A DNA stretch of 52,932 nt. It comes from a virus. The first letter of the stretch is position 1. Every line of letters begins with the position of its first letter. This document shows, in pieces, positions 1,037-51,053 of the stretch. The notes under the pieces are model-generated. The model worked only from the letters and a program-made list of their open reading frames with translations. It was not told where the DNA came from and searched no databases. The DNA lies in IMG/VR virus record IMGVR_UViG_3300045988_134091, positions 1 through 52,932 of that record. One strand, written 5' to 3'. The position numbers were made by a program, and so were the translations under genes.

Positions 1037-1452
1037 ACCGTAGGGAACGCAGAAAACTGGAGCGCCAGGGGAAAATACCCAAGGCTGAGCCTGTCTATTT
1101 GATGAAGCCCTCAGACATTAAGGATGCGGCCCTGAAGGGGGCTGGTGAACAGGCTATGCTGAATGAGATTCATCAGCAGTGTTTGGCTGCAGACAAGTCA
1201 TTCACCCTTGATATGGATACCATATATCTCTGGACACTCCATAGCAAATATGGCTGGGGACTGAAACGCCTGAAACAGTTCTACAAGGAGGTGTTTGTTG
1301 AACACCGCCGTATGCGGGAGTTCTATGAGATGGATAGCACATATCCAGAGCGTTATCAACTGAAAAGCAAGGGCATAGACATTGAAGCTTGGTATAATGA
1401 GCTGTTTGATGAAGAAGGAAACTTCAAGAAGCCTGAGGAGATCAACATATGA
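1033..1452 (+). CDS. Hypothetical protein
   Basis: ORF track; RBS ggaggg upstream; start and stop both overlap the neighbouring genes. Confidence 0.55.
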   Translation: MNRRERRKLERQGKIPKAEPVYLMKPSDIKDAALKGAGEQAMLNEIHQQCLAADKSFTLDMDTIYLWTLHSKYGWGLKRLKQFYKEVFVEHRRMREFYEMDSTYPERYQLKSKGIDIEAWYNELFDEEGNFKKPEEINI

Positions 1453-3155: not shown

Positions 3156-3255
3156 AATTTGTGAAAATTCACGATATGGTGAGCAATCAGAAGAAAAAGT
3201 GAGTTATTGGGGCATAATTGAGCAAAACCTTGTGAAAATAGTTTAAAATTACCCC

Positions 3256-3284
3256 TTTACTTTTGATTGAAGATAGGGTATGAT
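3256..3284 (+). promoter_or_regulatory. Class B promoter B1 (CTTTACTTTT type)
   Basis: TTTACT 3256-61, 17 nt, TATGAT 3279-84, then ACCAATGTAAGCAGGAGG. Confidence 0.55.
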
Positions 3285-3350
3285 ACCAATGTAAGCAGGA
3301 GGGAACGCCAGAAGCCCTCCCACAATAAAAATTTTAAGGAGTGTATTACA

Positions 3351-3899
3351 ATGCTGGAAATGAACAAGGGTGATAAGGTTATTCTAAAGGGTTTCACGGG
3401 TATCAAGCTGGGTGTGTTCCCGGTTGCGAGCACCACCAAAAAGACCATCACTGTGCTGAAAAAGAATGGTGATGAGATGGTGTTCGACCGCAAGACCGGT
3501 AAGCAGGTCAATGTTGAGGAGGGCAAGGAGAAGTATGCCAACAGCATCATCCCTGATGATGGCAGCTTTGTTGCTCCTTCCACGGCTGGTGCCAAGCGCA
3601 AGTCCACCAAGAAGGCAGCCAAGGTCAAGACCAAGGTTGAGGATGAGGCTGACGAGGACGATGAGGAGGACGATGAGGACAAGGCCCCCAAGAAGTCCAA
3701 GAAGGCAGCCAAGAAGCCTGCAAAGAAGTCTGCCCCCGTTGAGGATGACGAGGACGAGTATGAAGACGATGACGAGGACGATGAGCCCGTCCCTGTCAAG
3801 AAGTCCGTAAAGAAGGGCAAGAAAGCTGCCAAGAAGGGCAAGAAAGCAGCTGCGGATGACGACGAGGACGACGATGAGTTTGAGGAAGTTGATGACTGA
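3351..3899 (+). CDS. Early protein: N-terminal FTG domain (paralogs at 45214 and 45734) plus Lys-rich/acidic block tail
   Basis: RBS aaggag upstream of ATG 3351; KGFTGIKLGVF...FDRKTGKQVN...KYANSI motif; tail made of KKAAKK and DEDDE blocks. Confidence 0.7.
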   Translation: MLEMNKGDKVILKGFTGIKLGVFPVASTTKKTITVLKKNGDEMVFDRKTGKQVNVEEGKEKYANSIIPDDGSFVAPSTAGAKRKSTKKAAKVKTKVEDEADEDDEEDDEDKAPKKSKKAAKKPAKKSAPVEDDEDEYEDDDEDDEPVPVKKSVKKGKKAAKKGKKAAADDDEDDDEFEEVDD

Positions 3900-4168
3900 T
3901 TGTCATACCCTCTAAACTGAATACGGGTGGGGCAACAGCCCCTCCCTTAATGCGGCTGACTGAGGAGCCTCCCAGCTGAAGTCAACGGTGACAAGCCCGT
4001 GTAAACTGCAGAGTCAAGGGACTGTATACCCGGCTCTTGTTTAGGCGCCAGCGAAGAGCAAAGGAAAAGAGTACAGAAGGAAGGAGTTCCCTTGGAGTGC
4101 TCCAAGGTAGAGAAGCTACTACAGCCAGGTGCTAAACCAGTCCTGGCATTAAGTTACAATAAACGGGG

Positions 4169-5134
4169 GTGAGTGAGATACACATCAGCTACTCCAGGGA
4201 AAGCTCCTATTTGCGTTGCCCGTATCAGCATTGGCTAAGGTATGTACGAAGATTGGAGAAGAAGAAGCCTGAACGCCCATTGTATTTTGGAACAGACTTT
4301 CATAAGCTCCTTGAGCTCCGTAATGACCCTGAAGCCCTGAGAGATGCAAAGGAAACCATCAGAGACACCTACTATGAAATGCCGGCATCTTGGCAGGGAG
4401 AGCTGGGTGAGAATTACCTTGATGACCTGTTTAACATTTTCAAGGACTACAGACGGGTGTACAAAGGAGTGAGGCAACCCCAAGTAACAGAGCATGAGTT
4501 TGAGCTTGATGTTGGTGATTGTAAGGGTGAGCCCATAATCTTTGTAGGGAAGATTGATGAGCTGTATTTGCTGAAGCACAGTGGTGTAAAGTCCATAACG
4601 GTTGGTGAACATAAAACTTTCTCCAATAAGCCTAATATGGACATCTTGGTTATGAACACACAAAAGTGCTTGTATGCGAAAGCAGTCCAATTTTTAAGAG
4701 GTATTTTACCCGACAAGGTAAAATGGGATTACATTCGTTCAACACCTGCGGCTGAGCCGATTTGGCTTGAGAAGTCAAAGAGATTCAGTGAGGCAGCATC
4801 AACCAAGATTACACCCATGAGCTGGAAAAGGGCCTGCAAAGCACGCGGGATAATTGACCCAGAGGTTATCCAGAAGGGACAAAAGTACAAGTCCAATATC
4901 CCTGAGTTTTTCTTCCAAGTTGAGCTGGATATTGACCCGGCTATGGTAGATGTGATTTGGGACGGTTTCTTGTACACGGCAAAGCAGATTATCCGGTTTG
5001 GAGACAAGAACAAAACCCGGAATGTAACACGGGACTGTTCCTGGTGTCCGTACCATGATATTTGCTATACAGAAATGACTGGAGGAGATGTACAATATGT
5101 CATCGGTAGAGACTTCAAAGAAAGAGAACACTGA
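4169..5134 (+). CDS. PD-(D/E)XK nuclease, Cas4/RecB-like, with 4-Cys cluster
   Basis: N-terminal YLRCPYQHW Cys; GKIDELYLL...VGEHKT (D...ExK); C-terminal CSWCPYHDIC; GTG start after gggg. Confidence 0.8.
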   Translation: MSEIHISYSRESSYLRCPYQHWLRYVRRLEKKKPERPLYFGTDFHKLLELRNDPEALRDAKETIRDTYYEMPASWQGELGENYLDDLFNIFKDYRRVYKGVRQPQVTEHEFELDVGDCKGEPIIFVGKIDELYLLKHSGVKSITVGEHKTFSNKPNMDILVMNTQKCLYAKAVQFLRGILPDKVKWDYIRSTPAAEPIWLEKSKRFSEAASTKITPMSWKRACKARGIIDPEVIQKGQKYKSNIPEFFFQVELDIDPAMVDVIWDGFLYTAKQIIRFGDKNKTRNVTRDCSWCPYHDICYTEMTGGDVQYVIGRDFKEREH

Positions 5135-6982: not shown

Positions 6983-7010
6983 GAGGGGGCCTCAGCCCCC
7001 TCTCCTGATT
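6983..7010 (+). terminator. Intra-operon hairpin (attenuator/terminator-like)
   Basis: gagggggc-ctca-gccccctc followed by tcctgatttt. Confidence 0.5.
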
Positions 7011-7022
7011 TTGGAGGTTTAC

Positions 7023-8018
7023 ATGGATTTGTATCATATACCGGGTGATACAGGCGGGGACTGGAGACTGGGAAAGTTTGTTGAGTATCAACATGAAGTC
7101 CCAAGCATCCATTACCGGGTTATGGGGCACTACATTGTTGACTGGGTACCAGATCGTGATGATGCTGTCATGATGTGTTGGTATATGTCGGCTACATACA
7201 ATGAAATAACCTGTATGCTGCTACAGGAACTGTTTGATTGGAGAAGCCTGACCCCAAAAACAGTGAAGGACTATTGCCAGAGATTTTGGCAGGAAACTAA
7301 ACCTGTACTTGACTTTGGGTCATCCCGAAGGTATGCCAAGAATATGGATTGGTTTCCAACCTTGATGGAGGCTTTTATCAGAACCACACACCGTAAACCC
7401 TACTCTTGGCTGCGAGGCTTAATTCAGGGTGATCCTGTGGAAGATTACAGACGGGTATTCAGTGCAGTTTCTGCCCTCCCCTACACAGGTAGGTTTGCAG
7501 CAGACCTGTTTATGGAGTCAGTCCTGTATTTGGGTGAGTATCTGGGCATAGAACTGACTGAGCCCTCCCTGTTAAACTGGAAAAAGTGCAGCAATCTCAC
7601 TTCCGGGTTGTTGAATATCTTCTATCGTGATGAGGAAGCAAATGAGTATGACAAGACTGGGAAACTCCCTGTGTCAGAAAAGTTCCTGACCAAGAAACTT
7701 GAAACTGTTCAGAGAAAGATTGAAAAGGTTTACCCTGAACAAGACAATGACATCAACCTATTCATTGGGAAAATCTGTAGCTTCAGAAACTTATTCAAAG
7801 CAACCCGTTATGGTGGATTTCATCATGACAGAGAGCTGGGTGTGCTGAGAGAGTACGAGCATGTATTGCCTGACTTTCAATACATTTGGGATAGGGCTTT
7901 TGACCTCAGAGAACAGATGTTTGATAAGCGGTTTCTTGGAGAGTTCCATGACTGGGATGGAATACGCCCAGAAAGAAAAAAGCTATGGCTGAGAGAGGGG
8001 TTGACTGGGGTTGAGTAG
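7023..8018 (+). CDS. Divergent paralog of the 47915 DNA base hypermodification protein (aGPT-Pplase / 5-hmdU-DNA-kinase helical-domain-like)
   Basis: Same length class as 47915-48922; shared GRFAADLF/GKFLSYQIF and CSFRNLFK/CFCELSKY motif positions; stop overlaps the start of the P-loop kinase; RBS tggagg upstream of ATG 7023. Confidence 0.4.
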   Translation: MDLYHIPGDTGGDWRLGKFVEYQHEVPSIHYRVMGHYIVDWVPDRDDAVMMCWYMSATYNEITCMLLQELFDWRSLTPKTVKDYCQRFWQETKPVLDFGSSRRYAKNMDWFPTLMEAFIRTTHRKPYSWLRGLIQGDPVEDYRRVFSAVSALPYTGRFAADLFMESVLYLGEYLGIELTEPSLLNWKKCSNLTSGLLNIFYRDEEANEYDKTGKLPVSEKFLTKKLETVQRKIEKVYPEQDNDINLFIGKICSFRNLFKATRYGGFHHDRELGVLREYEHVLPDFQYIWDRAFDLREQMFDKRFLGEFHDWDGIRPERKKLWLREGLTGVE

Positions 8019-8613
8019 AGTGCTGGTCAATGTACGGGGTTGTAACGGGGCTGGGAAGTCTACCATTCCCATGTCCATGATGGATGACCCTGAAATGTAT
8101 GTACACGAGATTATGGGGAGTGACGGGAAGAAAATAAGTGCCATCACCGTCTTTCCCTCCTATGGCTGGGTTGCCTTGGGAACATACTTCAACAAAACAG
8201 GTGGCCTGGATACCCTGAAGAACAATGCAGTTACCAAGCTGACTTTGTTCGCTGCCCTTGATGGGTTTCCTGAGTATGATGTGCTCCTGGAGGGCATTAT
8301 GGCAAGCACTATTCGCTCAACTTACATTGACTTGTTCCATGAAGTTGAGGACTACTACGGGAAGAAGCAGCTGAAGGTCATCGTGGTGTCCCTTCTCCCA
8401 CCCGTAGATGTGGCACTGAGCCGTGTTTATAAGCGCAATGGGGGTAAACCCATCAATGAAGCTGCGGTGGCAGGGAAGTGGAAGACTGTGGCAAGAAATG
8501 TGGCTGAATTTGCTGATGCTGGGTTCACCTCTATCAAAGTTAATTCCGCCAAGGTTAAAAAGAAGAACATGTTGCCGGCTTTTCTCAAGACCGTGAACAA
8601 ATACAGGGGGTAA
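8011..8613 (+). CDS. P-loop kinase, candidate 5-hydroxymethylpyrimidine DNA kinase (5-HMUDK-like)
   Basis: Walker A GCNGAGKST near the N-terminus; about 200 aa; translationally coupled to the upstream hypermodification-like gene. Confidence 0.5.
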   Translation: MSRVLVNVRGCNGAGKSTIPMSMMDDPEMYVHEIMGSDGKKISAITVFPSYGWVALGTYFNKTGGLDTLKNNAVTKLTLFAALDGFPEYDVLLEGIMASTIRSTYIDLFHEVEDYYGKKQLKVIVVSLLPPVDVALSRVYKRNGGKPINEAAVAGKWKTVARNVAEFADAGFTSIKVNSAKVKKKNMLPAFLKTVNKYRG

Positions 8614-8618
8614 CAAGA

Positions 8619-8906
8619 ATGGACAAAGTTCAGATTCATAAGCAGCTGTGTGACAGCATGCATGCTTTGTATGAGAGAAAAAACGCTGACTATGGTGACT
8701 CCTTCGCTCAGCTCAGAAAGAGATACCCCAATTTTGTATGTATGAGGTTGTTTGACAAGCTCAACCGTTTAGATACCATCATTCAGCCTGGGTATGAATG
8801 CAAGGTGTCTGACGAGAAGATTGAGGACACCCTGATGGACATAGCAAATTATGCCGTCATGGAGCTGACTGAGCGGAGAGCAGAAGGAGGATTCAATGAA
8901 GATTGA
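8619..8906 (+). CDS. DUF1599 / MazG-like all-alpha NTP pyrophosphohydrolase-fold protein
   Basis: KNADYGDSF...RLFDKLNRL...EDTLMDIANYAVM signature. Confidence 0.55.
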   Translation: MDKVQIHKQLCDSMHALYERKNADYGDSFAQLRKRYPNFVCMRLFDKLNRLDTIIQPGYECKVSDEKIEDTLMDIANYAVMELTERRAEGGFNED

Positions 8907-9030
8907 TACCAATTGGCTGGATGAGGCTGTGGCCATTATTTCCAAGGGTACAGCTGACAGGCTCACAAAAGGAAACATTACTGTATACCGGGTGACGAAC
9001 ATCATCCGGATTGATATCAAGGAGGTTTAA
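8896..9030 (+). CDS. Small hypothetical protein (44 aa, below the ORF-track cutoff)
   Basis: gaaggagg lies 5 nt upstream of ATG 8896; the stop lies immediately upstream of the RBS-preceded ATG 9032. Confidence 0.4.
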   Translation: MKIDTNWLDEAVAIISKGTADRLTKGNITVYRVTNIIRIDIKEV

Positions 9031-9031
9031 C

Positions 9032-9742
9032 ATGGTCACCGTATTTGAAGGAAGAACTGTAAATGACGCTTGGCTGGCTGGGTTCAATGCCCTTCAGACT
9101 CAGGCTGAGAAAGGATACACCGCTGACTCCAGAGACGGGGGTGTGGTTGGGGAGATTTGCGATGCGGTTTTCTGTATTGAAGACCCCACACGGAACATCG
9201 TGAGCAGCCCCATTCGCAAGATGCCTATGCGGTATGCTGTGGGTGAGCTGGCCTGGTATCTTTCTGGATCCAATAAGGTCAAGGACATCTCCCAGTTTGC
9301 CAAGAAGTGGGCTGACATCTCTGATGATGGCGAGACAAACAACTCTGCCTATGGTTGGAGAATCTTTGACAAGTTTGGTTTTGACCAGTGGCAGTACGTG
9401 AAGGAGCTGCTTTGGAAAGACCCCAGTAGCCGTCAAGCCGTTATCCACATCAAGGATGCAAACAATCAGCCTACCAAAGATGTACCCTGCACGGTGTATC
9501 TTCAGTTCTTCATCCGGGATGGAAAACTGAACCTGTCTACCCATATGCGCTCCAATGATATTTGGATGGGTGTACCCTATGATATGTTCAGCTTCTGCTT
9601 CCTTCAGATGTTGATGGCTATGCAGCTGGGTGTTGAGATTGGGCATTATACCCATTATGCTGGTTCTCTCCACATGTACGCCAGAGACTATGAAGCAGCC
9701 AAGAAAAACATTTCAGCGTTGCCTCAGGCATCTTCTAACTGA
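9032..9742 (+). CDS. ThyA-family deoxypyrimidylate hydroxymethylase (T4 gp42-like; Asp at the TS Asn177 position suggests dCMP)
   Basis: aggagg RBS; NNSAYGWRIF, DPSSRQAVIHI, PCTVYLQFFIRDGKL, MRSNDIWMGVPYDMF, GSLHMYARDY. Confidence 0.8.
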   Translation: MVTVFEGRTVNDAWLAGFNALQTQAEKGYTADSRDGGVVGEICDAVFCIEDPTRNIVSSPIRKMPMRYAVGELAWYLSGSNKVKDISQFAKKWADISDDGETNNSAYGWRIFDKFGFDQWQYVKELLWKDPSSRQAVIHIKDANNQPTKDVPCTVYLQFFIRDGKLNLSTHMRSNDIWMGVPYDMFSFCFLQMLMAMQLGVEIGHYTHYAGSLHMYARDYEAAKKNISALPQASSN

Positions 9743-9757
9743 GGGTGGGGTGGTATT

Positions 9758-10108
9758 ATGCGGGAAGGGCTTATCAAGTTTCTGATAAAGGTTCTTGATG
9801 AGAACAGAGATAAGCTGGTCTGGGAACACCTCTGTTATGCCCCCAAGGGCTTGTATTTGAAGTTTATTGACACCATGGGGATAGAGCGGTTTGAGATGGC
9901 TGATTTTGTGTCCAAATGGGCCAAGGAGGACTTCAATATTGACCTCCCCATGACAACCGCCAAGGACATTACCATTCTCCGGGAGCTTGTTCTGGACAAG
10001 TACAGTAGCGCATACCCCCATCTGCTGAGGAAGTCTGCTACAGATCACCAAGGCTGGGTCAGGGTTTGGGTATCAACACATATGGAAAGGGATTTACAAA
10101 GACAATGA
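9758..10108 (+). CDS. Hypothetical protein
   Basis: ORF track; ATGA overlap with the next gene. Confidence 0.5.
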   Translation: MREGLIKFLIKVLDENRDKLVWEHLCYAPKGLYLKFIDTMGIERFEMADFVSKWAKEDFNIDLPMTTAKDITILRELVLDKYSSAYPHLLRKSATDHQGWVRVWVSTHMERDLQRQ

Positions 10109-10497
10109 TTGAATCTACACAGTACAATGAGAAAGAGCTGTTCCCGCCCATCCTTGCGGTGGACTTTGATGGAACGCTGGTTGAAAACAAGTTCCCTGAG
10201 ATCGGGGAAGTCAACCCCGTGATTTGGGAAGCGGTATCTGCTTACAAAGCTGCGGGTTGGAAAATCATCTTGTGGAGCTGCCGAACAGAGACTATGCTTC
10301 AGGATGCGGTGGACTTCTGCGCATATCGGGGCTTGACCTTTGATGCTGTGAATGAAAACCTTCCTGAAGTTCAGGCATATTATGGCGGTGATACCAGGAA
10401 AGTGTTTGCCAATATGTACATCGATGACCGCTCCGCCGCCCTCTTTGTACAGCCGGATGTATCAGAGTTTGCCCCGGTCAATCTGGTATGGGGGTGA
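10105..10497 (+). CDS. HAD-superfamily hydrolase (putative nucleotidase/phosphatase)
   Basis: AVDFDGTL (DxDxT motif I); WSCRT (motif II-like); IDDR near the C-terminus. Confidence 0.6.
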   Translation: MIESTQYNEKELFPPILAVDFDGTLVENKFPEIGEVNPVIWEAVSAYKAAGWKIILWSCRTETMLQDAVDFCAYRGLTFDAVNENLPEVQAYYGGDTRKVFANMYIDDRSAALFVQPDVSEFAPVNLVWG

Positions 10498-10502
10498 GCA
10501 GG

Positions 10503-10826
10503 ATGTCTGTAAAACGGTTGTGTGATTGCTGTGGCACGGAAATTGCCGAGGATGATTTCATGGTGCTCAATCTTCTTCCCAAATGGAAAACCCGTGGGTT
10601 CAGCTTTGATATACCCTTTGCTACTCCAATGCCCAATCAGGAGTTGTGTGATAGTTGCGCTGCAGAAGTATATGAGCATTATCAGCTGATGAAAGCCAAT
10701 AAGCAGGGCAAAACCCTGAAGCGGGTGTGTCTCAATTGTGGTCAAGAGAATGACTACGATATTGTTTGTCCGATTTGCGGATTCTCCGCATTCAAATTGA
10801 CAGAGGGGGATACAAGTGGGGCTTGA
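10503..10826 (+). CDS. Zinc-ribbon protein (three CxxC pairs)
   Basis: CDCCGTE, CDSCAAE, CLNCGQ...CPICG. Confidence 0.5.
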   Translation: MSVKRLCDCCGTEIAEDDFMVLNLLPKWKTRGFSFDIPFATPMPNQELCDSCAAEVYEHYQLMKANKQGKTLKRVCLNCGQENDYDIVCPICGFSAFKLTEGDTSGA

Positions 10827-11178
10827 ATCTACACTTCAAAGCCGTGTACTTGATTATCTCAATCAGCTGCCCGGTTGTAAAGCAGAAAATGTCTCAGGAA
10901 ATGCTTCACAATCGGGCAGACCTGATATCAATGGATGCTTCCGGGGGAGAATGTTCAAGCTGGAGTTGAAAACCCCTGACCACAGGTACAAGGCCAGTAA
11001 AAAGCAACAGCTTGAGTTGAGACGCTGGAAGAATACCGGGTGTGTTGTTGGGGTTATCTACAGTATGGCTATGATTTACAAATTGTTCTCTTTGGACTGG
11101 GAAGAATACCCTGGTTATGAAGAAAAGACTGAGGCCAATAATTGCTTGTCATGGTTTGACATTCCTGACTGGGGGTGA
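10816..11178 (+). CDS. VRR-NUC domain nuclease
   Basis: GRPDINGCFRGRMFKLELKTP (D...ExK); position next to an SNF2 helicase. Confidence 0.75.
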   Translation: MGLESTLQSRVLDYLNQLPGCKAENVSGNASQSGRPDINGCFRGRMFKLELKTPDHRYKASKKQQLELRRWKNTGCVVGVIYSMAMIYKLFSLDWEEYPGYEEKTEANNCLSWFDIPDWG

Positions 11179-11182
11179 GTTC

Positions 11183-12601
11183 GTGGTTGTACATGGGTTT
11201 ACAATGAAGACAAAGCCTTGGGAACATCAGCTCAAGGCTTTGGAGTATTTATACCCCAGAGATGCCGCTGCACTGTACACAAAACCAGGAAGTGGCAAAA
11301 CCAAAATCATGATTGATTTGATTGTCAATAGAGAGTTCAAGAGAGTGTTGGTTGTGGCTCCGAAAAAACCTTGTGATGTTTGGCCCCCTCAAATCAAACT
11401 CCATTCAAGTTTGGAGTATGGCAATATAATCCCGCTTCATAAGTTGAATTGGGAAGGAAAGAAAAAAGCCCTTCAGTCGGCTATGAAACAGCCAAAAGAC
11501 AAGCCCTTGATATTCGTATGTAACTATGAATCGGTTTGGAGAAAACCCCTGGACAAGATGCTATTCTACAAAAAGCTAGGGATTGACTGCGTTATTTGTG
11601 ATGAAAGCCATAGAATCAAATCGCCCAGTAGCAAATGCTCCAGATTCCTTGCCCGGTTAGGAAAGAGTGTGCCACACCGATACTTGCTCACGGGCACTCC
11701 GTTGGCAGAAAACCCCATGGATGTATATGCGCAGTATAGGTTTCTTGACCCGGCGATATTTGGTACCAACTACTATGCATTTTGCGAGGAATACCAGAAT
11801 GTAGATACAGCACTCAGCTCCAGAGTTGGATTTCCTGTTTTGAACAAGAAGGAACCATACAAAAACCTGGATAGACTAAGGGAGAAAATGTTCAGTTGTG
11901 CTTTCTACATGAAGTCAACTGTAAAACTTCCCAAAACAACCCGCATGGTTATCAAAGTTCCTATGGACCAAAAGACTGAGGAAGTGTACAGGGAGCTGGC
12001 AAAAGAGGGTGCTGTGGAGCTGGGTGAGGGCTTTATGACAGTGAACAATGTCTTGGCTATGACCATCCGTAAACAACAAGTCACAAGCGGATATCTCCCT
12101 ATTGAGTATGACGATGGTACAAAAGAGCTGAAAAGAATCAGCACATACAGACGAACATTTCTGTACAACTTTGTGAAAAATCTCCCTGATGAGGAGCCAC
12201 TGGTCATATTTGCCAAGTTCAGAAAAGACTTGTATGCCATCCGAAAAGTGGCTGAGAAACTGGGATGCGGATATTCTGAGGTGTCCGGTTCAGAAGATAC
12301 CTTGAAGGATTGGAAGGAAGGCAAAACCCGGATATTGGGTGTTCAGTACACCTCTGGCTCTGAAAGTATAGACTTGACCCGTGCCCACATATGTATCTTT
12401 TACACACTGGACCACTCTTTGGGGAAGTATGACCAAGCCAGGAAACGGGTACACCGTCCCGGTCAGGAGAATCCTTGTTTGTACTACCATTTTGTAGCAA
12501 CCATGTCCACAGGAAAGACTGTTGACCAAGATATACTACAATGCTGGAAGAACAAAGAAGACTATGTCAAAGCTGTAATGAATGGGGCTGAGGCCCACTG
12601 A
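11183..12601 (+). CDS. SNF2-family helicase (start uncertain: GTG 11183 or ATG 11204)
   Basis: GSGKTK Walker A, DESHRIK (DExH), QARKRVHRPGQ (motif VI). Confidence 0.9.
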   Translation: MVVHGFTMKTKPWEHQLKALEYLYPRDAAALYTKPGSGKTKIMIDLIVNREFKRVLVVAPKKPCDVWPPQIKLHSSLEYGNIIPLHKLNWEGKKKALQSAMKQPKDKPLIFVCNYESVWRKPLDKMLFYKKLGIDCVICDESHRIKSPSSKCSRFLARLGKSVPHRYLLTGTPLAENPMDVYAQYRFLDPAIFGTNYYAFCEEYQNVDTALSSRVGFPVLNKKEPYKNLDRLREKMFSCAFYMKSTVKLPKTTRMVIKVPMDQKTEEVYRELAKEGAVELGEGFMTVNNVLAMTIRKQQVTSGYLPIEYDDGTKELKRISTYRRTFLYNFVKNLPDEEPLVIFAKFRKDLYAIRKVAEKLGCGYSEVSGSEDTLKDWKEGKTRILGVQYTSGSESIDLTRAHICIFYTLDHSLGKYDQARKRVHRPGQENPCLYYHFVATMSTGKTVDQDILQCWKNKEDYVKAVMNGAEAH

Positions 12602-46625: not shown

Positions 46626-46666
46626 ATATGCATGAGGCTGAATGGCCAGAAAAGGAGGTATCACCA

Positions 46667-47245
46667 GTGAAACAGTATCTGTTATCGGAGGAAGATCGCA
46701 AGAAGGACTTGTTGGAGCTGCTTGAAAAGAACAATGTTCCGCTTGAGTTGTTCCCGTATGAGTGGTTGTGTACCACAGATTTCTTCAGAGCACCTGCTTC
46801 AAAAGGATTCCACGCAGCATATCCGGGGGGATTGTATGACCACTGTGTAAATGTCACTTCCCAGCTCTTGGATATGAGAGACAAGGGAGTGACGCAAACT
46901 TGGGGCCGGGTTGAAAGCCCAATTATTGTGGGCATGCTACACGATGTCACAAAGATCGGTATGTACATCCTGAGTCAAGACATGAACCCAATCAAGCAGG
47001 GGATTGAAACATTTCACATCAAAAACCCTCTGTACAGCGGCTTTGGTGGACATGGGTATGATTCAGTATGCAAGATTGAACAGCACATGAGGCTGACAGA
47101 AGAGGAACGGTTGTGTATCAGATACCATATGGGTGCCTATGAGACAGATGATTGGAGCGGGTATGATAGAGCAATCAGAAAGTTTCCAAATGTACTCTGG
47201 ACACACACCGCTGATATGTTGGCCTCCAAACTGATGGAGGATTGA
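46667..47245 (+). CDS. HD-domain phosphohydrolase
   Basis: aaaggagg lies 8 nt upstream of GTG 46667; FHAAYPGGLYDHCVNV and MLHDVTKIG (H...HD) motifs. Confidence 0.65.
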   Translation: MKQYLLSEEDRKKDLLELLEKNNVPLELFPYEWLCTTDFFRAPASKGFHAAYPGGLYDHCVNVTSQLLDMRDKGVTQTWGRVESPIIVGMLHDVTKIGMYILSQDMNPIKQGIETFHIKNPLYSGFGGHGYDSVCKIEQHMRLTEEERLCIRYHMGAYETDDWSGYDRAIRKFPNVLWTHTADMLASKLMED

Positions 47246-47249
47246 AACA

Positions 47250-47918
47250 ATGGTTCTATACTCTGGGAACAAGGGGAAACCTCTCAAGAAAAGACACTCC
47301 AACCCGTACTGCATATTTTTCTTTATCTGCTGTGTGCTTCTGATGGCCTCAGTACTGTTGAATGTGAAGGCCATTAACCTGCTCAGGGCCTCTGTGGAAC
47401 AAACCAAACAGGCTATCTCTGTGGCAGAGGATGCACAGACGATTGCAAACCAGGCTGTGTACAATATGAGAACCACAAAATACCCTGAGCTTGAGCCTGA
47501 GTTATGCTGTGACAAGGAAGCCTATGTGGACTCTGTAGCGGCAGAATACCTGGCCAATGTTGCTTGGGGCGAGGCTCGTGGTTGCTCTGTGACAGAACAG
47601 GCAGCTGTTATGTGGTGTGTACTCAACAGAGTGGATAGCCCTTTGTACCCAGATTCTGTAGGGGAGGTTGTTACACAGAGGGCTCAATTTAATGGATATT
47701 CTGCAAGCAACCCGATTACTCCAGAGTTACTCCAGTTGGCTAATGATGTGTTGACCTATTGGTCTAAGGAGGATGACTCTGGCCGGGTTTTGCCAAAAGA
47801 ATATCTGTATTTCATCGGGGATGGTAAACATAACTATTTTTATAAAACATGGGGTGGCAATGCAACAGCTTGGGATTGGAGCTTGCCCAGCCCTTATAAG
47901 GAGGATACGATAAAATGA
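47250..47918 (+). CDS. SleB/CwlJ-family cell wall hydrolase with N-terminal signal-anchor TM
   Basis: YCIFFFICCVLLMASVLL TM; NVAWGEARGCSVTEQAAVMWCVLNRV...QRAQFNGY. Confidence 0.75.
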   Translation: MVLYSGNKGKPLKKRHSNPYCIFFFICCVLLMASVLLNVKAINLLRASVEQTKQAISVAEDAQTIANQAVYNMRTTKYPELEPELCCDKEAYVDSVAAEYLANVAWGEARGCSVTEQAAVMWCVLNRVDSPLYPDSVGEVVTQRAQFNGYSASNPITPELLQLANDVLTYWSKEDDSGRVLPKEYLYFIGDGKHNYFYKTWGGNATAWDWSLPSPYKEDTIK

Positions 47919-48922
47919 GAACCAAGCCTGCAGATACCCTGTATTGCGGAGTAGACAAGGAGCGCATCAAGAAAGCTAAACCTGTGCTGAATGAGCGCAA
48001 TCTTTTGTACCTGTACAATTTTATCAAGCGAAGATATGTCATCCACTTGAGAAAGGATGTTTTGAAGAAAGACCCACCCTGGACCAATGACCAAGTGCTG
48101 CGGAATTTCCGGTTCACCAACATTCGCCGAGAGCATGACAAGGAGAGCAAGTGGGTGATTGAGCACATCGCCAATAACCCTGAGCTGTCTTATGAGGACA
48201 AACTGCTCAATGCCATCCTTTTTCGGCTTTACAACAAGCATGAAACCGCTGAGCTGATTTCCATGCCGATCAAGTTCAGCCAAACCCCTGACTGGAATCC
48301 TGAGTGGTACAGAAGTCTGTTTGAAGCTGCTCTGGCTGAAGATCCTCATGTGAAGTTCTTTACTGGTGCATTTAACACCGGAGGCCTGAAGCGCGCCTTG
48401 AAATGGTATCTTCCCAAGGATGACCCAAAAAACAGTATGCCCATGAGGGTGCTTTGGTTTATCCAGTATCTTATTGGGGAAGACATCGTTGGTCAAGTGA
48501 AGAGCTGTACCAGACAAGATGAAGTATGTAATACATTGTCATCTTATATGGGTCTTGGGAAATTCCTTTCCTACCAGATTTTTGTTGATATGACTTATAT
48601 CAAGGAGTTTCCATTCTCTGAGAATGAGTACACACAGGCTGGCCCCGGCTGCGTTATGGGCCTCGACTATCTGTTTGAAGACAGAGATGGGATGACCTAT
48701 GAGGAATGTCTGTTTTGGCTGAGGGATAACCTGGACAGGCTGTTTGTGGAGGAGCTGGGAAAAGACTGGGATGCCAAACGGGTATTCTGGGATTTGCCTG
48801 AAGAAGACAGGTGCTTCAATGTTATGTCCCTGGAAAATTGCTTCTGCGAGTTGTCAAAGTACATCCGAGCCAAGGATGGAACAGGCAGACCTCGGAAAAA
48901 GTACAATGGTGGTGGAAGATGA
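47915..48922 (+). CDS. DNA base hypermodification protein family (aGPT-Pplase / 5-hmdU-DNA-kinase helical-domain-like)
   Basis: PPWTNDQVLRNFRFTNIRREHDKESKW signature plus GKFLSYQIFVDMTY...GPGCVMGL and ENCFCELSKY, recalled from phage thymidine-hypermodification genes. Confidence 0.55.
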   Translation: MRTKPADTLYCGVDKERIKKAKPVLNERNLLYLYNFIKRRYVIHLRKDVLKKDPPWTNDQVLRNFRFTNIRREHDKESKWVIEHIANNPELSYEDKLLNAILFRLYNKHETAELISMPIKFSQTPDWNPEWYRSLFEAALAEDPHVKFFTGAFNTGGLKRALKWYLPKDDPKNSMPMRVLWFIQYLIGEDIVGQVKSCTRQDEVCNTLSSYMGLGKFLSYQIFVDMTYIKEFPFSENEYTQAGPGCVMGLDYLFEDRDGMTYEECLFWLRDNLDRLFVEELGKDWDAKRVFWDLPEEDRCFNVMSLENCFCELSKYIRAKDGTGRPRKKYNGGGR

Positions 48923-49737
48923 TTCCTGTATTTGTACCATCCTATCAGAGACCTGACGCTGTATTTTTGAAGAGGAGTGTTCTGTACAAGTTTCCTCTAT
49001 ACGTGTTCATTCGCAAAGAAGAGAAAAGTGAATACGAGTGGCTGAAATGTCGCCCTGAAACAACCTTGGTTTTACTTAAGAATGTGGAAAACATTGGAGA
49101 AACCAGACGAGCAATGTTCAATTATGCTGTCAAGAAAGGAATTGACAAAGTTTTCATGATTGATGATGATGTTTCTCGGTTAGACATATCCGTGTGGGAT
49201 GAGGAAAGAGAAGTAGTTCGTGCTTCTGGAACAGTCAAAGGGAAACCTGAGGATTGGAGAAAGGCTCTGACCAAATGGGAGACCGAATGGGAAAATGAAG
49301 CCCTATTTGGTGCATCCTATCGCCCATTCAGCTGGTCTATGAAGAAAGAAGTGTTTGGAGGGAAAAGTCGGGCACAACTACAACAAGCTGTTGGTGTGAA
49401 TATTGCTCTTCTCAACTCTGCCGGCCTCAACTACCAAAGCAATTCTGTAGTTGGTAATGAAGATCTGTTTCTTCAACTGGAGTGCTATCAACATGGACTT
49501 GAGTGCCTAAAGACTTCTATGGTTCAGTATGACTGCCCAGCAATGGGTTCCGGTACAGGAGGATGCAACTCATCAGAATTGGGAACAATACAAGAAAAAC
49601 AAGAAGTCCGGGTAGAACGATTTTGTCGTGCTTGTACTGAGCCCTCTTTGATTCGTGTTGGCCAAACTCGTTCTGGCGTAAAGAGTGTGAAATTTGTTTG
49701 GTCACAAATTTCAAGATTGATGGAGGATACAAAATAA
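48919..49737 (+). CDS. GT-A-fold glycosyltransferase-like protein (TET/JBP-associated-glycosyltransferase-like)
   Basis: N-terminal IPVFVPSYQRPD strand; FMIDDDV (DxD); ATGA overlap with the upstream gene. Confidence 0.5.
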   Translation: MIPVFVPSYQRPDAVFLKRSVLYKFPLYVFIRKEEKSEYEWLKCRPETTLVLLKNVENIGETRRAMFNYAVKKGIDKVFMIDDDVSRLDISVWDEEREVVRASGTVKGKPEDWRKALTKWETEWENEALFGASYRPFSWSMKKEVFGGKSRAQLQQAVGVNIALLNSAGLNYQSNSVVGNEDLFLQLECYQHGLECLKTSMVQYDCPAMGSGTGGCNSSELGTIQEKQEVRVERFCRACTEPSLIRVGQTRSGVKSVKFVWSQISRLMEDTK

Positions 49738-50228
49738 TGAGTAAATTGAAAAGCCTGTGTCGGAAAGACTGTCTGGATATGGCTCAGTCCTATGCTGACA
49801 AAGTCAGTGGGTGTAGAAAAGTGGCAGTGGGTTCTGCCATTGTGAGTGCTGAGGGGAATGTTATTGCTATGGGGGCCAACCGGGCTGTGCCTGACTTGTG
49901 TAAAACACCCCGTGGATGCCTCCGTGTGGAAAAATATGGGGAGGATAGCAAGAATCACAGAAACCCTGAAGACTGCCGTGCAATTCACAGCGAGATTGAT
50001 GCCATTTGTAGTGCAGCCTCTTCTGGTGTGCCTGTAAAGGGTTCTTCCATTTTTGTAACCAGATACCCATGCGAGGGTTGTGCCAAAGCCATTATTGCTG
50101 CTGGTATCAAGAAGGTGTACTATGGTGGGACAGCCCATATAAGCCCGCAGACGGCAGTTATGTTCAGGGCCTTTGGTGTGGATTGTACCTATATCTCAGA
50201 CTGGAAGGAAGACAATAGTGATAGATGA
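49737..50228 (+). CDS. dCMP deaminase (ComEB/T4 Cd-like)
   Basis: CRAIHSEIDAI (HxE) and RYPCEGCAKAI (PCxxC); ggagg RBS; TAATG overlap. Confidence 0.85.
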   Translation: MSKLKSLCRKDCLDMAQSYADKVSGCRKVAVGSAIVSAEGNVIAMGANRAVPDLCKTPRGCLRVEKYGEDSKNHRNPEDCRAIHSEIDAICSAASSGVPVKGSSIFVTRYPCEGCAKAIIAAGIKKVYYGGTAHISPQTAVMFRAFGVDCTYISDWKEDNSDR

Positions 50229-50320: not shown

Positions 50321-50656
50321 ATGGAAAACACTGAACAGTTAGTTCTGCCCACTCTGCCTGTTACGCCTATATTGACCGAAGAAACCTGTACCAAATTGGT
50401 AGAGGCTTTTCAGGCCATTGGAGATGCTATTGTAAAAGCGTTTGAGCCTGTAGTATTGGCTATATCTGAGGTTGTAAATAGCCTGGTTATCCCCGTAGTA
50501 CAGGAGCTGATGAAAAAGCTGTTCAAGATTGCATCACCTTCCAAAGTGTATTATTTGGCATATCATGGAAAGAAGCGTCGAACAAGAAAGAAAAATCTGA
50601 AACGCTTGATGCGTTATTGGGAGGAATTCATCAATGGATGTTACAAGGTTCATTAA
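50321..50656 (+). CDS. Hypothetical protein with basic C-terminus
   Basis: ggaaggag lies upstream of ATG 50321, inside track ORF 50270-50656. Confidence 0.5.
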   Translation: MENTEQLVLPTLPVTPILTEETCTKLVEAFQAIGDAIVKAFEPVVLAISEVVNSLVIPVVQELMKKLFKIASPSKVYYLAYHGKKRRTRKKNLKRLMRYWEEFINGCYKVH

Positions 50657-51050
50657 CAAAAAGCAGCGGGAAGTTCTGGCAAGGGCAAGAAAAACTTATG
50701 GGGACACTGCCCAAATTCTGGTGTCTACGGAAGAACTGTGTGAGCTGGCTGCGGTCTGTTCCAAATACCCCCGGTACCAGACCAAGGAAAAGGCTCAGGA
50801 TGAGCTTCATGACAAGGCTGTAGATGAGGTTGCAGATGTCCTAATTGTACTTGACCATGTCATCAATATTTTTGGTTTGACTCCGGTTGATATTGGGGAC
50901 AGGATTGCTGGGAAGGTTGCCCGTCTGGAAAGATGGCTCAATACATCTAACAGCATGGAACAGACCACGGTAGACAGAAAGGTTCCTGGTCAGCTTCACA
51001 TCACAGAAATGTGCCAGGGAGGTTTGTTTGAGCCGATTGAGGAGGAATGA
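50634..51050 (+). CDS. MazG-like nucleoside triphosphate pyrophosphohydrolase
   Basis: EELCELAA...DEVADVLIVLDHV EExxE/D-type helices. Confidence 0.65.
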   Translation: MDVTRFINKKQREVLARARKTYGDTAQILVSTEELCELAAVCSKYPRYQTKEKAQDELHDKAVDEVADVLIVLDHVINIFGLTPVDIGDRIAGKVARLERWLNTSNSMEQTTVDRKVPGQLHITEMCQGGLFEPIEEE

Positions 51051-51053
51051 CGC

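What the first reader, a model, noticed from the sequence alone, without database searches (positions are those of the whole stretch)
9032..9742. Hydroxymethylase carries Asp at the thymidylate-synthase Asn177 position, so the modified base may be cytosine rather than thymine
I aligned the protein by eye to E. coli ThyA, recalled from memory as PCHAFFQFYV...YQRSCDVFLGLPFNIASY. The phage protein reads PCTVYLQFFI...HMRSNDIWMGVPYDMFSF.

The catalytic Cys is kept. The Asn that reads the uracil face is replaced by Asp, as in T4 gp42 dCMP hydroxymethylase (MRSNDVVFGFRNDYAW, from memory). The Asn-to-Asp change is known to switch TS-family enzymes toward dCMP.

This conflicts with the hmdU-type kinase and pyrophosphorylase-like genes nearby. 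Two readings are possible. One is that 5-hm-dCMP is made and then deaminated by the phage dCMP deaminase. The other is that the hypermodification machinery acts on hmC, which to my knowledge has not been described.
Basis: partly seen in the sequence, partly recalled or inferred. Interest (0 to 1): 0.7.

Follow-up and report, generated by a model that had tools for sequence, protein, structure and literature searches.

The report
Cytosine-type hydroxymethylase beside thymine-hypermodification genes
A phage enzyme that by every sequence and structure test should hydroxymethylate dCMP, not dUMP, sits in a gene cluster so far known only for decorating thymine, and this pairing holds across a whole group of uncultured phages, so they may make an undescribed modified cytosine or reach hydroxymethyl-uracil by an undescribed route.

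Summary
The 236-aa protein at 9032-9742 (+) is a thymidylate-synthase-fold enzyme. It has Asp184 where E. coli ThyA has Asn177.

It carries the full cytosine and hydroxymethyl signature:
- Asp at ThyA position 143 and Cys at 146.
- Thr at 147.
- Asp169 kept, which excludes a 5-hydroxy-dCMP synthase.
- Arg and Ser at the two sites that select deoxyribose.

Its closest solved relative is the CMP hydroxymethylase MilA (TM 0.85-0.88, 36-37% identity).

The Asp is not a one-off. All 120 close homologues keep it, and so do 148 of 150 representatives of 50%-identity clusters.

I collected 80 viral loci through the neighbouring 5-hmdU-DNA-kinase-family gene. Twenty-six kinases of the window's clade sit beside an Asp/Thr-type hydroxymethylase. 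Forty-four kinases of the SP10, ViI and M6 types sit beside an Asn/Asn-type one. There were no exceptions.

The 335-aa neighbour folds like the PaMx11 5-PmdU glycinyltransferase.

Sequence cannot tell whether the kinase and transferase act on 5-hmC (my best guess, about 0.4) or whether hm-dCMP is first deaminated to hm-dUMP (about 0.3). I found neither route described in the literature searched. This is a new variant of a known kind and is directly testable.

The parts
9032..9742 (+). Thymidylate-synthase-fold enzyme of 236 aa, predicted dCMP 5-hydroxymethylase. Residues, with ThyA numbering in brackets: Asp150 (143), Cys153 (146), Thr154 (147), Arg173-Ser174 (166-167), Asp176 (169), Asp184 (177), His214/Tyr216 (207/209).
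   Evidence: Pfam PF00303, E = 7.6e-29. Best solved sequence match is MilA, E = 7e-34. The residue signature is conserved in homologues. The AF2 model has pLDDT 97 and its top Foldseek hits are MilA at TM 0.85-0.88. NCBIfam thymidylate synthase equivalog models score far below their cut-offs, best 92.9 bits against 327.
8011..8613 (+). P-loop kinase of the 5-hmdU DNA kinase family (200 aa).
   Evidence: Pfam PF18748, E = 9e-25. Identity is 44.6% to the N-terminal part of SP10 gp186 and about 37% to the ViI-like and M6-like kinases. It belongs to a monophyletic kinase clade that always sits beside an Asp-type hydroxymethylase. Database proteins fuse this kinase to the upstream 335-aa protein.
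7011..8018 (+). 335-aa divergent member of the amino-acid:DNA transferase family (ADDT, formerly aGPT-Pplase2). The likely true start is the ATG at 7023 (MDLYHIPG...). Cys256 is invariant in the family. The E-[ST]-x-L-C metal-ligand motif of characterised members is absent here.
   Evidence: The window protein itself has no Pfam hit. Its relatives at 24-34% identity hit PF18724 ADDT at 6e-8, 2e-7 and 2e-4. The AF2 model has pLDDT 88. Its only credible Foldseek hits are PaMx11 gp46 5-PmdU glycinyltransferase, 8z2m/8z2n, at prob 0.97-0.99 and TM 0.46-0.52 over the full length.
8619..8906 (+). DUF1599, 'nucleotide modification associated domain 1' (95 aa). It lies directly upstream of the hydroxymethylase gene. 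It is possibly a nucleotide pyrophosphatase; that function is inferred, not shown.
   Evidence: Pfam PF07659, E = 3e-10. It is conserved next to the hydroxymethylase in most related loci. In some relatives a dNMP-kinase-like gene occupies this slot instead.
10066..10497 (+). Small HAD-type phosphatase (143 aa), conserved downstream of the hydroxymethylase. Its substrate is unknown.
   Evidence: NCBIfam BT0820-family HAD phosphatase, E = 2e-28 but below the cut-off. phrog_24386. It is present in all loci of the window's group and also next to Asn-type hydroxymethylases in L066, L068 and L069.
47915..48922 (+). PF18723 'HMUDK_hel' protein (335 aa). This is the helical family found next to or fused with the kinase in thymine-hypermodifying phages.
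   Evidence: Pfam E = 1.8e-63. phrog_2396, E = 1e-81. It is conserved just upstream of the deaminase across the group, including relatives that lack the kinase cassette (L120, L121).
48811..49737 (+). Glycosyltransferase of the TET-associated glycosyltransferase (TAGT) family (308 aa by the mechanical ORF; the true start is probably further downstream).
   Evidence: Pfam PF20691, E = 8.7e-10, 39.3 bits against a cut-off of 27.5. phrog_842, annotated 'beta-glucosyl-HMC-alpha-glucosyltransferase', E = 5e-13. One Asp-type hydroxymethylase in the database is fused to a TAGT domain (P0154).
49698..50228 (+). dCMP deaminase (176 aa).
   Evidence: Pfam PF00383, E = 1.7e-16. phrog_174 dCMP deaminase, E = 5e-30. 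It is conserved in relatives with and without the kinase cassette.
50634..51050 (+). Putative nucleoside triphosphate pyrophosphohydrolase (138 aa).
   Evidence: phrog_2245, E = 3.7e-12. No Pfam hit.
46628..47245 (+). HD-type metal-dependent phosphohydrolase (205 aa).
   Evidence: phrog_28876, E = 3.7e-20, and phrog_5889, E = 5e-26. It is conserved upstream of HMUDK_hel in relatives.

Best explanation
The gene encodes a dCMP 5-hydroxymethylase. Cys153 attacks C6 of dCMP. Asp184 reads and protonates the N3/N4 face of cytosine. Methylene-tetrahydrofolate donates the carbon, and water quenches the exocyclic methylene to give 5-hm-dCMP. I put about 0.8 on this step alone.

The nucleotide is then phosphorylated. 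The window has no dedicated dNMP kinase, so a host enzyme is inferred, and the phage family-A polymerase incorporates the product. The replicated DNA therefore carries 5-hmC.

The neighbouring genes then work on that hydroxymethyl group in the DNA. The PF18748 kinase, possibly together with the PF18723 protein, phosphorylates it. The 335-aa transferase uses its invariant Cys256 to expel the phosphate and add a nucleophile that is not yet known. The TAGT-family glycosyltransferase glycosylates other 5-hmC residues.

On this reading the dCMP deaminase has its ordinary T4-like role of supplying dUMP for dTMP synthesis.

Everything after hm-dCMP formation is inferred from gene content and co-occurrence. 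The confidence given below is for the whole chain, including 5-hmC as the substrate of the kinase and transferase.
For: Enzyme identity:
- The Asp177, Asp143, Thr147 and Asp169 signature is shown.
- The published meaning of these positions comes from PMC13326640, PMC8670742 and PMC5175136.
- Arg134 and Ser174 match the state that prefers deoxyribose substrates.
- The nearest solved structure is the cytosine-specific MilA.
- Database homologues are fused to dNMP-kinase-like domains, and one is fused to a TAGT glycosyltransferase.

Coupling to the kinase and transferase:
- Among 80 kinase-anchored viral loci, 26 of 26 kinases of the window's clade sit beside a D143/C146/T147/D169/D177 enzyme.
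- In the same set, 44 of 44 kinases of the SP10, ViI and M6 types sit beside D143/C146/N147/D169/N177.
- The window-clade kinases are monophyletic yet diverge to 48% identity, so the pairing has been kept for a long time.
- The kinase is always adjacent to the 335-aa transferase homologue and is sometimes fused to it.
- The transferase family here is very distant from the thymine-acting ones. That is what a change of substrate base would predict.

Deaminase:
- It is present at the same conserved position in relatives that lack the kinase cassette (L120, L121).
- dCMP deaminase is the second most enriched domain in experimentally cytosine-modified contigs.
- Its presence therefore needs no special explanation.
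Against: - The only biochemically tested 5-HMUDK phosphorylates 5hmU but not 5hmC in DNA (PMC6457204).
- The kinase's closest cultured relative is from SP10, a hydroxymethyl-uracil phage, at 44.6% identity.
- Only one alignment column separates the two kinase groups consistently, Ala versus Ser in the Walker A loop. There is no visible retooling of the kinase for another base.
- The window's own transferase lacks the E-[ST] metal ligands that are essential in characterised members.
- The window has no dedicated dNMP kinase. E. coli cannot efficiently phosphorylate hm-dCMP without T4 gp1; this is general knowledge, not tested here. hm-dUMP appears to be handled by host kinases.
- In one sublineage the deaminase lies beside the kinase (L123, L125, L127).
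- The kinase clade is monophyletic, so the perfect association counts as one evolutionary event, not many.
Confidence: 0.4

Rival explanations
1. Deamination route. The enzyme makes 5-hm-dCMP. The phage dCMP deaminase (49698-50228) then converts some or all of it to 5-hm-dUMP. Host thymidylate kinase and NDP kinase take this to the triphosphate. The DNA carries 5-hmU, and the kinase and transferase act on it exactly as in the SP10, M6 and ViI phages. A mixed version is possible: 5-hmC is also incorporated and glycosylated by the TAGT enzyme, so both pyrimidines end up modified.
For: - The kinase family is known to be specific for 5hmU.
- The kinase clade is sister to the SP10-like 5hmU kinases and shows almost no group-specific residue changes.
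- A dCMP deaminase is found in every lineage of the group that could be examined, and it is adjacent to the kinase in L123, L125 and L127.
- The window has no dNMP kinase, which would hinder direct use of hm-dCMP more than use of hm-dUMP.
- A homologous HAD phosphatase lies next to Asn-type hydroxymethylases in Bacillus-phage-like loci, where a dTMP-removing function would make sense.
- T-even dCMP deaminase is known to accept hm-dCMP in vitro. This is general knowledge, not tested here.
Against: - It is a roundabout route. An Asn-type enzyme acting on the deaminase's normal product, dUMP, does the same job in one step. All 44 other kinase-bearing loci use that solution.
- The deaminase is equally conserved in relatives without the kinase cassette, and it is typical of cytosine-modifying phages in general.
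- No phage is known to make hm-dUMP this way.
Confidence: 0.3
2. Asp does not decide specificity in this clade. Despite Asp184, the enzyme hydroxymethylates dUMP, or both dUMP and dCMP, and the cluster is an ordinary thymidine-hypermodification system.
For: - The gene context is that of thymidine hypermodification.
- The closest cultured-phage homologue is annotated as deoxyuridylate hydroxymethyltransferase, but that is an unverified annotation.
- Asn177 is not essential for chemistry on dUMP in mutagenesis studies of thymidylate synthase. This is general knowledge, not tested here.
Against: - Asp at this position switches both thymidylate synthase and T4 hydroxymethylase between dUMP and dCMP.
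- The experimentally grounded dUMP hydroxymethylase types aligned here (SP10, ViI-like, M6-like) have Asn177 and Asn147. A published alignment also reports Asn at this position for SPO1 dUH.
- The window enzyme shares Thr147 and 36-37% identity with the cytosine-specific MilA.
- Position 177 was the top discriminator of cytosine-modified contigs in an experimental metavirome screen.
- Asp is kept in 148 of 150 diverse relatives.
Confidence: 0.12
3. The kinase cassette does not act on the hydroxymethylase product in DNA. For example, the PF18748 protein could serve as the missing hm-dCMP nucleotide kinase, with the 335-aa protein doing something unrelated. Alternatively the cassette could be a decaying remnant.
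For: - The window has no other small P-loop kinase.
- PF18748 proteins give weak matches to thymidylate and deoxynucleoside kinase models.
- The window's transferase lacks the metal-ligand motif.
Against: - Relatives carry a separate dNMP-kinase-like gene in addition to the PF18748 kinase (L016, L024).
- The kinase and transferase are always adjacent, are sometimes fused, and both are well conserved. The catalytic Cys is invariant across sequences of only 23-27% identity.
- Related cassettes add radical-SAM and glycosyltransferase genes, as DNA hypermodification clusters do.
Confidence: 0.08

Closest known systems
T4 gp42 deoxycytidylate 5-hydroxymethylase (PDB 1B5E, 6A9A)
   Same: Same fold. 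Same catalytic Cys. Same Asp at ThyA position 177, Thr at 147, acidic residue at 143, Asp169 and Ser167. Short form with no C-terminal extension.
   Different: Only 25-29% identity. T4 pairs the enzyme with a dNMP kinase, a dCTPase and glucosyltransferases. The window pairs it with a PF18748 kinase, an ADDT-like transferase and a TAGT-family glycosyltransferase.
MilA, CMP 5-hydroxymethylase of mildiomycin biosynthesis (PDB 5B6D, 5JNH)
   Same: Closest solved relative: E = 7e-34, TM 0.85-0.88, 36-37% identity. Same cytosine-reading Asp.
   Different: MilA has Lys133 and Ala176, which favour the ribonucleotide. The window protein has Arg and Ser, the deoxyribonucleotide state. MilA also has a C-terminal extension and belongs to bacterial antibiotic biosynthesis, not to a phage.
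Phage dUMP hydroxymethylases with the 5-HMUDK and amino-acid:DNA transferase pathway (SP10, M6/PaMx11/YuA, ViI, SH-Ab 15599)
   Same: Same cluster logic. A TS-fold hydroxymethylase sits next to a PF18748 kinase, a PF18723 protein and an ADDT-fold transferase. Relatives add optional radical-SAM and other tailoring genes.
   Different: Those hydroxymethylases are long forms (333-437 aa) with Asn177 and Asn147, without exception in 44 loci. The window type is short (221-291 aa) with Asp177 and Thr147. The window's transferase is so divergent that Pfam does not detect it, and it lacks the E-[ST] metal ligands. The PF18723 gene lies about 13 kb from the kinase instead of adjacent to or fused with it.
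5-hydroxy-dCMP synthases (RB69 gp48, DLP3 gp80)
   Same: TS-fold enzymes with Asp at position 177 and an acidic residue at 143. They feed a glycosylated cytosine.
   Different: Their diagnostic D169N substitution is absent. The window protein keeps Asp176 (ThyA 169), as do 149 of 150 relatives.
5-carbamoyloxymethylcytosine phages found by MetaGPA
   Same: An Asp-type TS homologue supplies 5-hmC, and a DNA-level group-transfer enzyme then decorates it. The accompanying gene set (dCMP deaminase, MazG-like, family-A polymerase, SNF2, PD-(D/E)XK) resembles the window's.
   Different: The decorating enzyme there is a carbamoyltransferase acting directly on the hydroxyl. No kinase or ADDT-type domains appear in that study's association table.

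Membership tests
Thymidylate synthase superfamily (PF00303 fold) | Significant match to the family profile, and the TS fold. | tested here: met
   PF00303 E = 7.6e-29, 101 bits against a cut-off of 24.3. The AF2 model has pLDDT 97 and matches TS-fold structures at TM 0.72-0.88.
Thymidylate synthase superfamily (PF00303 fold) | Catalytic Cys146 and the nucleotide-binding residues Arg166, Ser167, Asp169, His207 and Tyr209. | tested here: met
   Cys153, Arg173, Ser174, Asp176, His214 and Tyr216 are invariant columns in A1 and A5.
Canonical thymidylate synthase ThyA (dUMP methylase) | Asn177 reading the uracil face. | tested here: not met
   Asp184 occupies this column.
Canonical thymidylate synthase ThyA (dUMP methylase) | Leu143 and His147 (water exclusion and the methyl product), and a score above the curated equivalog cut-offs. 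| tested here: not met
   Asp150 and Thr154 occupy these columns. The best NCBIfam thymidylate synthase equivalog scores 92.9 bits against a cut-off of 327.
Phage dUMP 5-hydroxymethylase (SPO1, SP10, ViI, M6 type) | Asn at position 177, and Asn at 147 in the phage enzymes surveyed here. | tested here: not met
   SP10 gp188, the PhaxI protein, the Bella protein and 44 metaviromic loci have N147/N177. The window has T/D.
Phage dUMP 5-hydroxymethylase (SPO1, SP10, ViI, M6 type) | Acidic residue at 143 (hydroxymethyl rather than methyl product). | tested here: met
   Asp150.
Phage dUMP 5-hydroxymethylase (SPO1, SP10, ViI, M6 type) | Long form with a C-terminal extension of about 100-150 aa. | tested here: not met
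   The window protein is 236 aa and ends about 20 residues after the conserved core. The Asn-type enzymes are 333-437 aa.
dCMP 5-hydroxymethylase (functional class of T4 gp42) | Asp at position 177. | tested here: met
   Asp184. It is conserved in 120 of 120 close homologues and 148 of 150 distant representatives.
dCMP 5-hydroxymethylase (functional class of T4 gp42) | Acidic residue at 143, and Asp169 retained (not a 5-hydroxy-dCMP synthase). | tested here: met
   Asp150 and Asp176.
dCMP 5-hydroxymethylase (functional class of T4 gp42) | Deoxyribose selectivity residues: Ser167 and the Arg126' equivalent, rather than Ala and Lys as in MilA. | tested here: met
   The MilA alignment pairs Ala176 with window Ser174 and Lys133 with window Arg134. 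The meaning of these residues comes from PMC5175136.
dCMP 5-hydroxymethylase (functional class of T4 gp42) | Catalytic activity on dCMP with methylene-tetrahydrofolate, yielding 5-hm-dCMP. | not testable with these tools
   This needs a recombinant enzyme assay.
5-hydroxy-dCMP synthase (RB69 gp48 type) | Asn replacing Asp169. | tested here: not met
   Asp176 is retained.
Thymidine hypermodification cluster (5-HMUDK plus amino-acid:DNA transferase) | PF18748 P-loop kinase. | tested here: met
   E = 9e-25, 87.7 bits against a cut-off of 27.
Thymidine hypermodification cluster (5-HMUDK plus amino-acid:DNA transferase) | Transferase of the PF18724 family with a catalytic Cys and neighbouring Glu/Thr metal ligands. 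| tested here: inconclusive
   The fold and the Cys are present. Family relatives pass the Pfam cut-off. The window protein itself has no Pfam hit and lacks the E-[ST] residues.
Thymidine hypermodification cluster (5-HMUDK plus amino-acid:DNA transferase) | A source of 5-hmdU: either an Asn-type dUMP hydroxymethylase or a thymine dioxygenase. | tested here: not met
   The only TS-fold gene found is Asp-type. None of the ORFs scanned matched a TET/JBP dioxygenase model. Not every ORF in the window was scanned.
Thymidine hypermodification cluster (5-HMUDK plus amino-acid:DNA transferase) | The kinase phosphorylates 5-hmU in DNA. | not testable with these tools
   Only the commercial enzyme has been tested. 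It accepts 5hmU and not 5hmC.

The most novel reading that the evidence does not exclude
A widespread clade of uncultured phages of about 50 kb has retargeted the kinase plus amino-acid:DNA-transferase pathway from 5-hydroxymethyluracil to 5-hydroxymethylcytosine. Their hosts are probably Firmicutes. The pathway would give a phosphorylated 5-hmC intermediate and a class of C5-substituted cytosines (amino-acid, amine or similar adducts) that has not been described in any DNA. These phages would also encode the first 5-hmC-specific DNA kinase, which could serve as a selective 5-hmC labelling reagent.
Probability: 0.4. Interest if true: 0.85.

Novelty: new variant of a known kind. Interest (0 to 1): 0.7.

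Why it matters
Phage DNA hypermodifications are a main way of escaping restriction enzymes and CRISPR. They are also a source of enzymes for epigenetic sequencing.

All known kinase and transferase pathways start from 5-hydroxymethyluracil. All known elaborations of 5-hydroxymethylcytosine add a group directly to its hydroxyl. This phage group pairs a cytosine-type hydroxymethylase with the uracil-type tailoring machinery, and it does so consistently.

Two outcomes are possible, and either would be new:
- **The machinery accepts 5-hmC.** That would mean a new family of modified cytosines and a 5-hmC-specific DNA kinase, a useful tool alongside the existing 5-hmU kinase.
- **The phages make hm-dUMP by deaminating hm-dCMP.** That would be a new branch of phage nucleotide metabolism.

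The result also warns that annotating such genes as 'thymidylate synthase' or 'dUMP hydroxymethylase' from context is unsafe. The residue pair at ThyA positions 147 and 177 sorts them cleanly.

Tried and rejected
- **Nucleotide search.** Megablast of 7000-12000 against GenBank phages found nothing. No cultured close relative exists. The nearest, Agathobaculum phage AB434P2, has a 58% identical Asp-type enzyme, but the PF18748 kinase was not detected in the 12.5 kb examined or among the listed rows of the phage-collection search.
- **Solved-structure sequence searches.** Searches with the kinase, the 335-aa protein (alone and as a profile) and the PF18723 protein gave nothing usable.
- **Profile comparisons.** hhalign of the 335-aa family against one true ADDT sequence gave nothing. 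BLASTP between the two 335-aa proteins of the window also gave nothing.
- **Structure prediction from locus-derived sequences.** I repeated it after a database search.
- **5-hydroxy-dCMP synthase.** Considered and rejected, because Asp169 is retained.
- **Ribonucleotide (CMP) enzyme like MilA.** Considered and rejected, because the Arg and Ser residues are present.
- **TAGT glycosyltransferase as evidence for 5-hmC.** This is not decisive. Many such enzymes are now thought to act on 5-hmU.
- **Deaminase as a way to separate the two readings.** It is present in relatives with and without the kinase cassette, so it does not discriminate. The pattern-based scan also misses some copies, so absence cannot be shown.
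- **Group-specific residues in the kinase.** Only one column differs consistently.
- **MetaGPA supplements.** I looked for this phage group or for kinase and Pplase domains among experimentally cytosine-modified contigs. No domain names and no shared k-mers turned up in the stored part of the files.
- **Iyer et al. 2013.** The paper that defined these families is not held in the library.
Full report
**What is at the coordinates**

The + strand ORF 9011-9742 contains an ATG at 9032 that gives a 236-aa protein. Close database homologues are 236 aa and align from their first residue, so 9032 is the likely start. The antisense ORF at 9017-9673 is a shadow of this gene.

The protein matches the thymidylate synthase family, PF00303, at E = 7.6e-29. 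The Cys153 codon is at 9488-9490 and the Asp184 codon at 9581-9583.

**Is Asp really at the Asn177 position?**

Yes. HMMER alignments to solved thymidylate synthases need nothing from memory. They align window 'MRSNDIWMGVPYDMFSF' with 'QRSADVFLGVPFNIASY'. The L. casei N229D mutant entry shows its engineered Asp in the same column.

Two MAFFT alignments give the same answer. They include E. coli ThyA, a T4-like gp42, SP10 gp188 (annotated dUMP hydroxymethylase), a ViI-like enzyme from PhaxI and an M6-like enzyme from Bella. Asp appears in the window protein, in the Agathobaculum phage homologue and in gp42. Asn appears in ThyA and in all three dUMP hydroxymethylase types.

A high-confidence AF2 model (pLDDT 97) is closest to the CMP hydroxymethylase MilA, at TM 0.85-0.88 and 36-37% identity. 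Thymidylate synthases and T4 dCMP hydroxymethylase follow at TM 0.72-0.78.

**The rest of the active site agrees**

A 2026 study of phage TS homologues lists diagnostic positions:
- Position 177: Asn for dUMP, Asp for dCMP.
- Position 143: Leu for a methyl product, Asp or Glu for a hydroxymethyl product.
- Position 169: Asn marks 5-hydroxy-dCMP synthases.

A metavirome screen found positions 177 and 147 to be the two best discriminators of cytosine-modified contigs. The MilA study showed that Ser167 and the Arg126' equivalent select deoxyribose, whereas Ala and Lys select ribose.

The window protein has Asp143, Cys146, Thr147, Arg166, Ser167, Asp169 and Asp177 in ThyA numbering, plus the Arg at the 126' position. 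That is the signature of a dCMP 5-hydroxymethylase. It is not the signature of a thymidylate synthase, a dUMP hydroxymethylase, a 5-hydroxy-dCMP synthase or a CMP enzyme. NCBIfam thymidylate synthase equivalog models score far below their cut-offs.

**Conservation**

All 120 listed homologues at 75-97% identity keep the motif. An exhaustive HMMER search of 1.84 billion cluster representatives gave 845 hits below 1e-30. Among the best 150:
- 148 have Asp177.
- 149 have Asp143.
- 146 have Thr147.
- 149 have Asp169.

Several of these are fused to dNMP-kinase-like domains, and one is fused to a TAGT glycosyltransferase.

**Surroundings**

The window is a nearly complete, circularly permuted phage genome. 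In a 53-kb relative, the D5-like primase gene that runs off the window's end leads directly into the genes at the window's start. One same-strand region therefore reads as follows:

| Coordinates | Product |
|---|---|
| 46628-47245 | HD phosphohydrolase |
| 47250-47918 | cell-wall hydrolase |
| 47915-48922 | PF18723 'HMUDK_hel' protein |
| 48811-49737 | TAGT-family glycosyltransferase |
| 49698-50228 | dCMP deaminase |
| 50634-51050 | NTP pyrophosphohydrolase-like protein |
| 51051 onward | D5-like primase/helicase |
| 1449-3155 | family-A DNA polymerase |
| between the polymerase and 7011 | recombination genes |
| 7011-8018 | 335-aa protein |
| 8011-8613 | PF18748 kinase |
| 8619-8906 | DUF1599 |
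| 9032-9742 | hydroxymethylase |
| 10066-10497 | HAD phosphatase |
| 11117-12601 | SNF2 helicase |

The 335-aa protein has no Pfam hit of its own. Its relatives at 24-34% identity in sister phages do match the amino-acid:DNA transferase family PF18724. Its AF2 model (pLDDT 88) has only one credible structural match, the PaMx11 5-PmdU glycinyltransferase, at prob 0.97-0.99 and TM about 0.5 over the full length. The next hit has prob 0.07. Cys256 is invariant across the family. Some database members are fused to the PF18748 kinase.

**How general is the pairing?**

I searched IMG/VR with an alignment of diverse PF18748 kinases and obtained 80 loci with 10-kb flanks. I then typed the TS-fold gene in each.
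- In all 26 loci whose kinase is at least 48% identical to the window's and that have a TS-fold gene in reach, that gene is a short D143/C146/T147/D169/D177 enzyme.
- In all 44 loci with a kinase at most 46% identical (SP10-like, ViI-like, M6-like and others), it is a long D143/C146/N147/D169/N177 enzyme.
- One further locus has a truncated Asn147 gene, and nine have no TS-fold gene in reach.
- There are no exceptions.

In a neighbour-joining tree the Asp-associated kinases form one clade, sister to the SP10-like kinases. The association therefore reflects a single ancient event. It has since been maintained through divergence down to 48% kinase identity.

The cassette between the recombination genes and the hydroxymethylase varies like a hypermodification island:
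- the transferase plus the kinase alone;
- or these with TAGT-like glycosyltransferases, a radical-SAM/SPASM enzyme, a dUTPase-like protein or a dNMP-kinase-like protein;
- or no kinase and no transferase at all (L011, L020, L025, L027, L028).

**Which base is finally modified?**

The computation stops here. The points below bear on the choice.

In favour of direct action on 5-hmC:
- The enzyme signature itself.
- The long-term, exclusive pairing of this kinase clade with Asp-type enzymes.
- The extreme divergence of the transferase from the thymine-acting ones.
- The deaminase sits in a conserved block (HD, HMUDK_hel, optional TAGT, deaminase) that is equally present in relatives without the kinase cassette.
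- dCMP deaminase is the second most enriched domain in experimentally cytosine-modified contigs, so it needs no special role.

In favour of deamination of hm-dCMP to hm-dUMP:
- The one tested 5-HMUDK rejects 5hmC.
- The kinase shows only one consistent group-specific residue difference.
- The window has no dedicated dNMP kinase.
- The deaminase is adjacent to the kinase in one sublineage.

The TAGT enzyme does not decide the matter. Related glycosyltransferases are now thought to act on either base.

My estimates are about 0.4 for the direct 5-hmC route, 0.3 for the deamination route (including a mixed state with both bases modified), 0.12 for an Asp-bearing enzyme that nevertheless uses dUMP, and 0.08 for a cassette unrelated to the hydroxymethyl group in DNA. 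The remainder is for possibilities I have not thought of.

**Novelty**

Full-text searches found no paper that describes any of the following:
- a kinase or transferase pathway acting on 5-hmC;
- a 5-hmC DNA kinase;
- an hm-dCMP deamination route to hm-dUMP.

Surveys of these clusters have assumed that the neighbouring TS homologue is a dUMP hydroxymethylase. The founding comparative paper, Iyer et al. 2013, was not available to check, so prior mention there cannot be excluded.

I classify the finding as a new variant of a known kind. The parts are familiar but their combination is not, and it defines a large, coherent phage clade. It can be settled with a handful of recombinant enzyme assays.

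Noticed in passing
window 46628-51050: A second island of nucleotide and modification genes: HD phosphohydrolase, PF18723 'HMUDK_hel', TAGT-like glycosyltransferase, dCMP deaminase and an NTP-pyrophosphohydrolase-like gene. The block HD / HMUDK_hel / (TAGT) / deaminase is conserved even in relatives that lack the P-loop kinase (L120, L121). So the PF18723 protein is not simply a kinase accessory in this group.
   Followed up: partly
window 7011-8018 (residues 247-263): The ADDT-like protein keeps the invariant Cys256. It reads FIGKICSFRN where true transferases (EVETVLCKWK) and a sister subfamily (IESNLCFFRK) have the E-[ST]-x-L-C motif. The Glu and Thr of that motif bind the essential metal in characterised enzymes. 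Either the metal site differs here or the chemistry has changed.
   Followed up: partly
database proteins P0480, P0498-P0500, P0503, P0504, P0507: Proteins of about 532 aa fuse the 335-aa ADDT-like protein to a PF18748 kinase domain. This confirms that the two window genes work together.
   Followed up: no
database proteins P0129, P0131, P0134, P0143, P0167, P0154: Asp-type hydroxymethylase homologues are fused to thymidylate-kinase-like dNMP kinase domains. In P0154 the fusion is to a TAGT glycosyltransferase domain.
   Followed up: no
L001 (Agathobaculum phage AB434P2, OP172633) 769-4500: This is the only cultured phage with a close Asp-type homologue (58% identity, annotated dUMP hydroxymethyltransferase). 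That gene sits beside a dNMP-kinase-like gene, a choline/ethanolamine-kinase-like gene and a cytidylyltransferase-like gene. The arrangement hints at a different, possibly phospho-alcohol, decoration of 5-hmC. The published annotation is probably wrong about the substrate.
   Followed up: partly
window 47915-48922, 48811-49737 and 49698-50228: The mechanically called ORFs overlap: HMUDK_hel and TAGT by 112 nt, TAGT and the deaminase by 40 nt. The true starts of the TAGT and deaminase genes are probably downstream of the first possible start codons.
   Followed up: no
window 51051-52932 and 1-75: A D5-like primase/helicase ORF (PriCT_1, D5_N, DUF5906) runs off the window's end. In the 53-kb relative L136 it is followed directly by the genes found at the window's start. 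The window is therefore a circularly permuted, essentially complete genome.
   Followed up: partly
L136 11533-11937 and 19936-20711: The close relative L136 encodes a Spo0A C-terminal domain protein, an Amidase_3/SPOR endolysin and a Dp-1-type holin. These point to a spore-forming Firmicutes host.
   Followed up: no
window about 12600-42000 versus the rest: GC skew and coding strand flip near 14-16 kb and near 42 kb. The structural and lysis genes lie on the - strand, between two + strand replication and modification regions.
   Followed up: no
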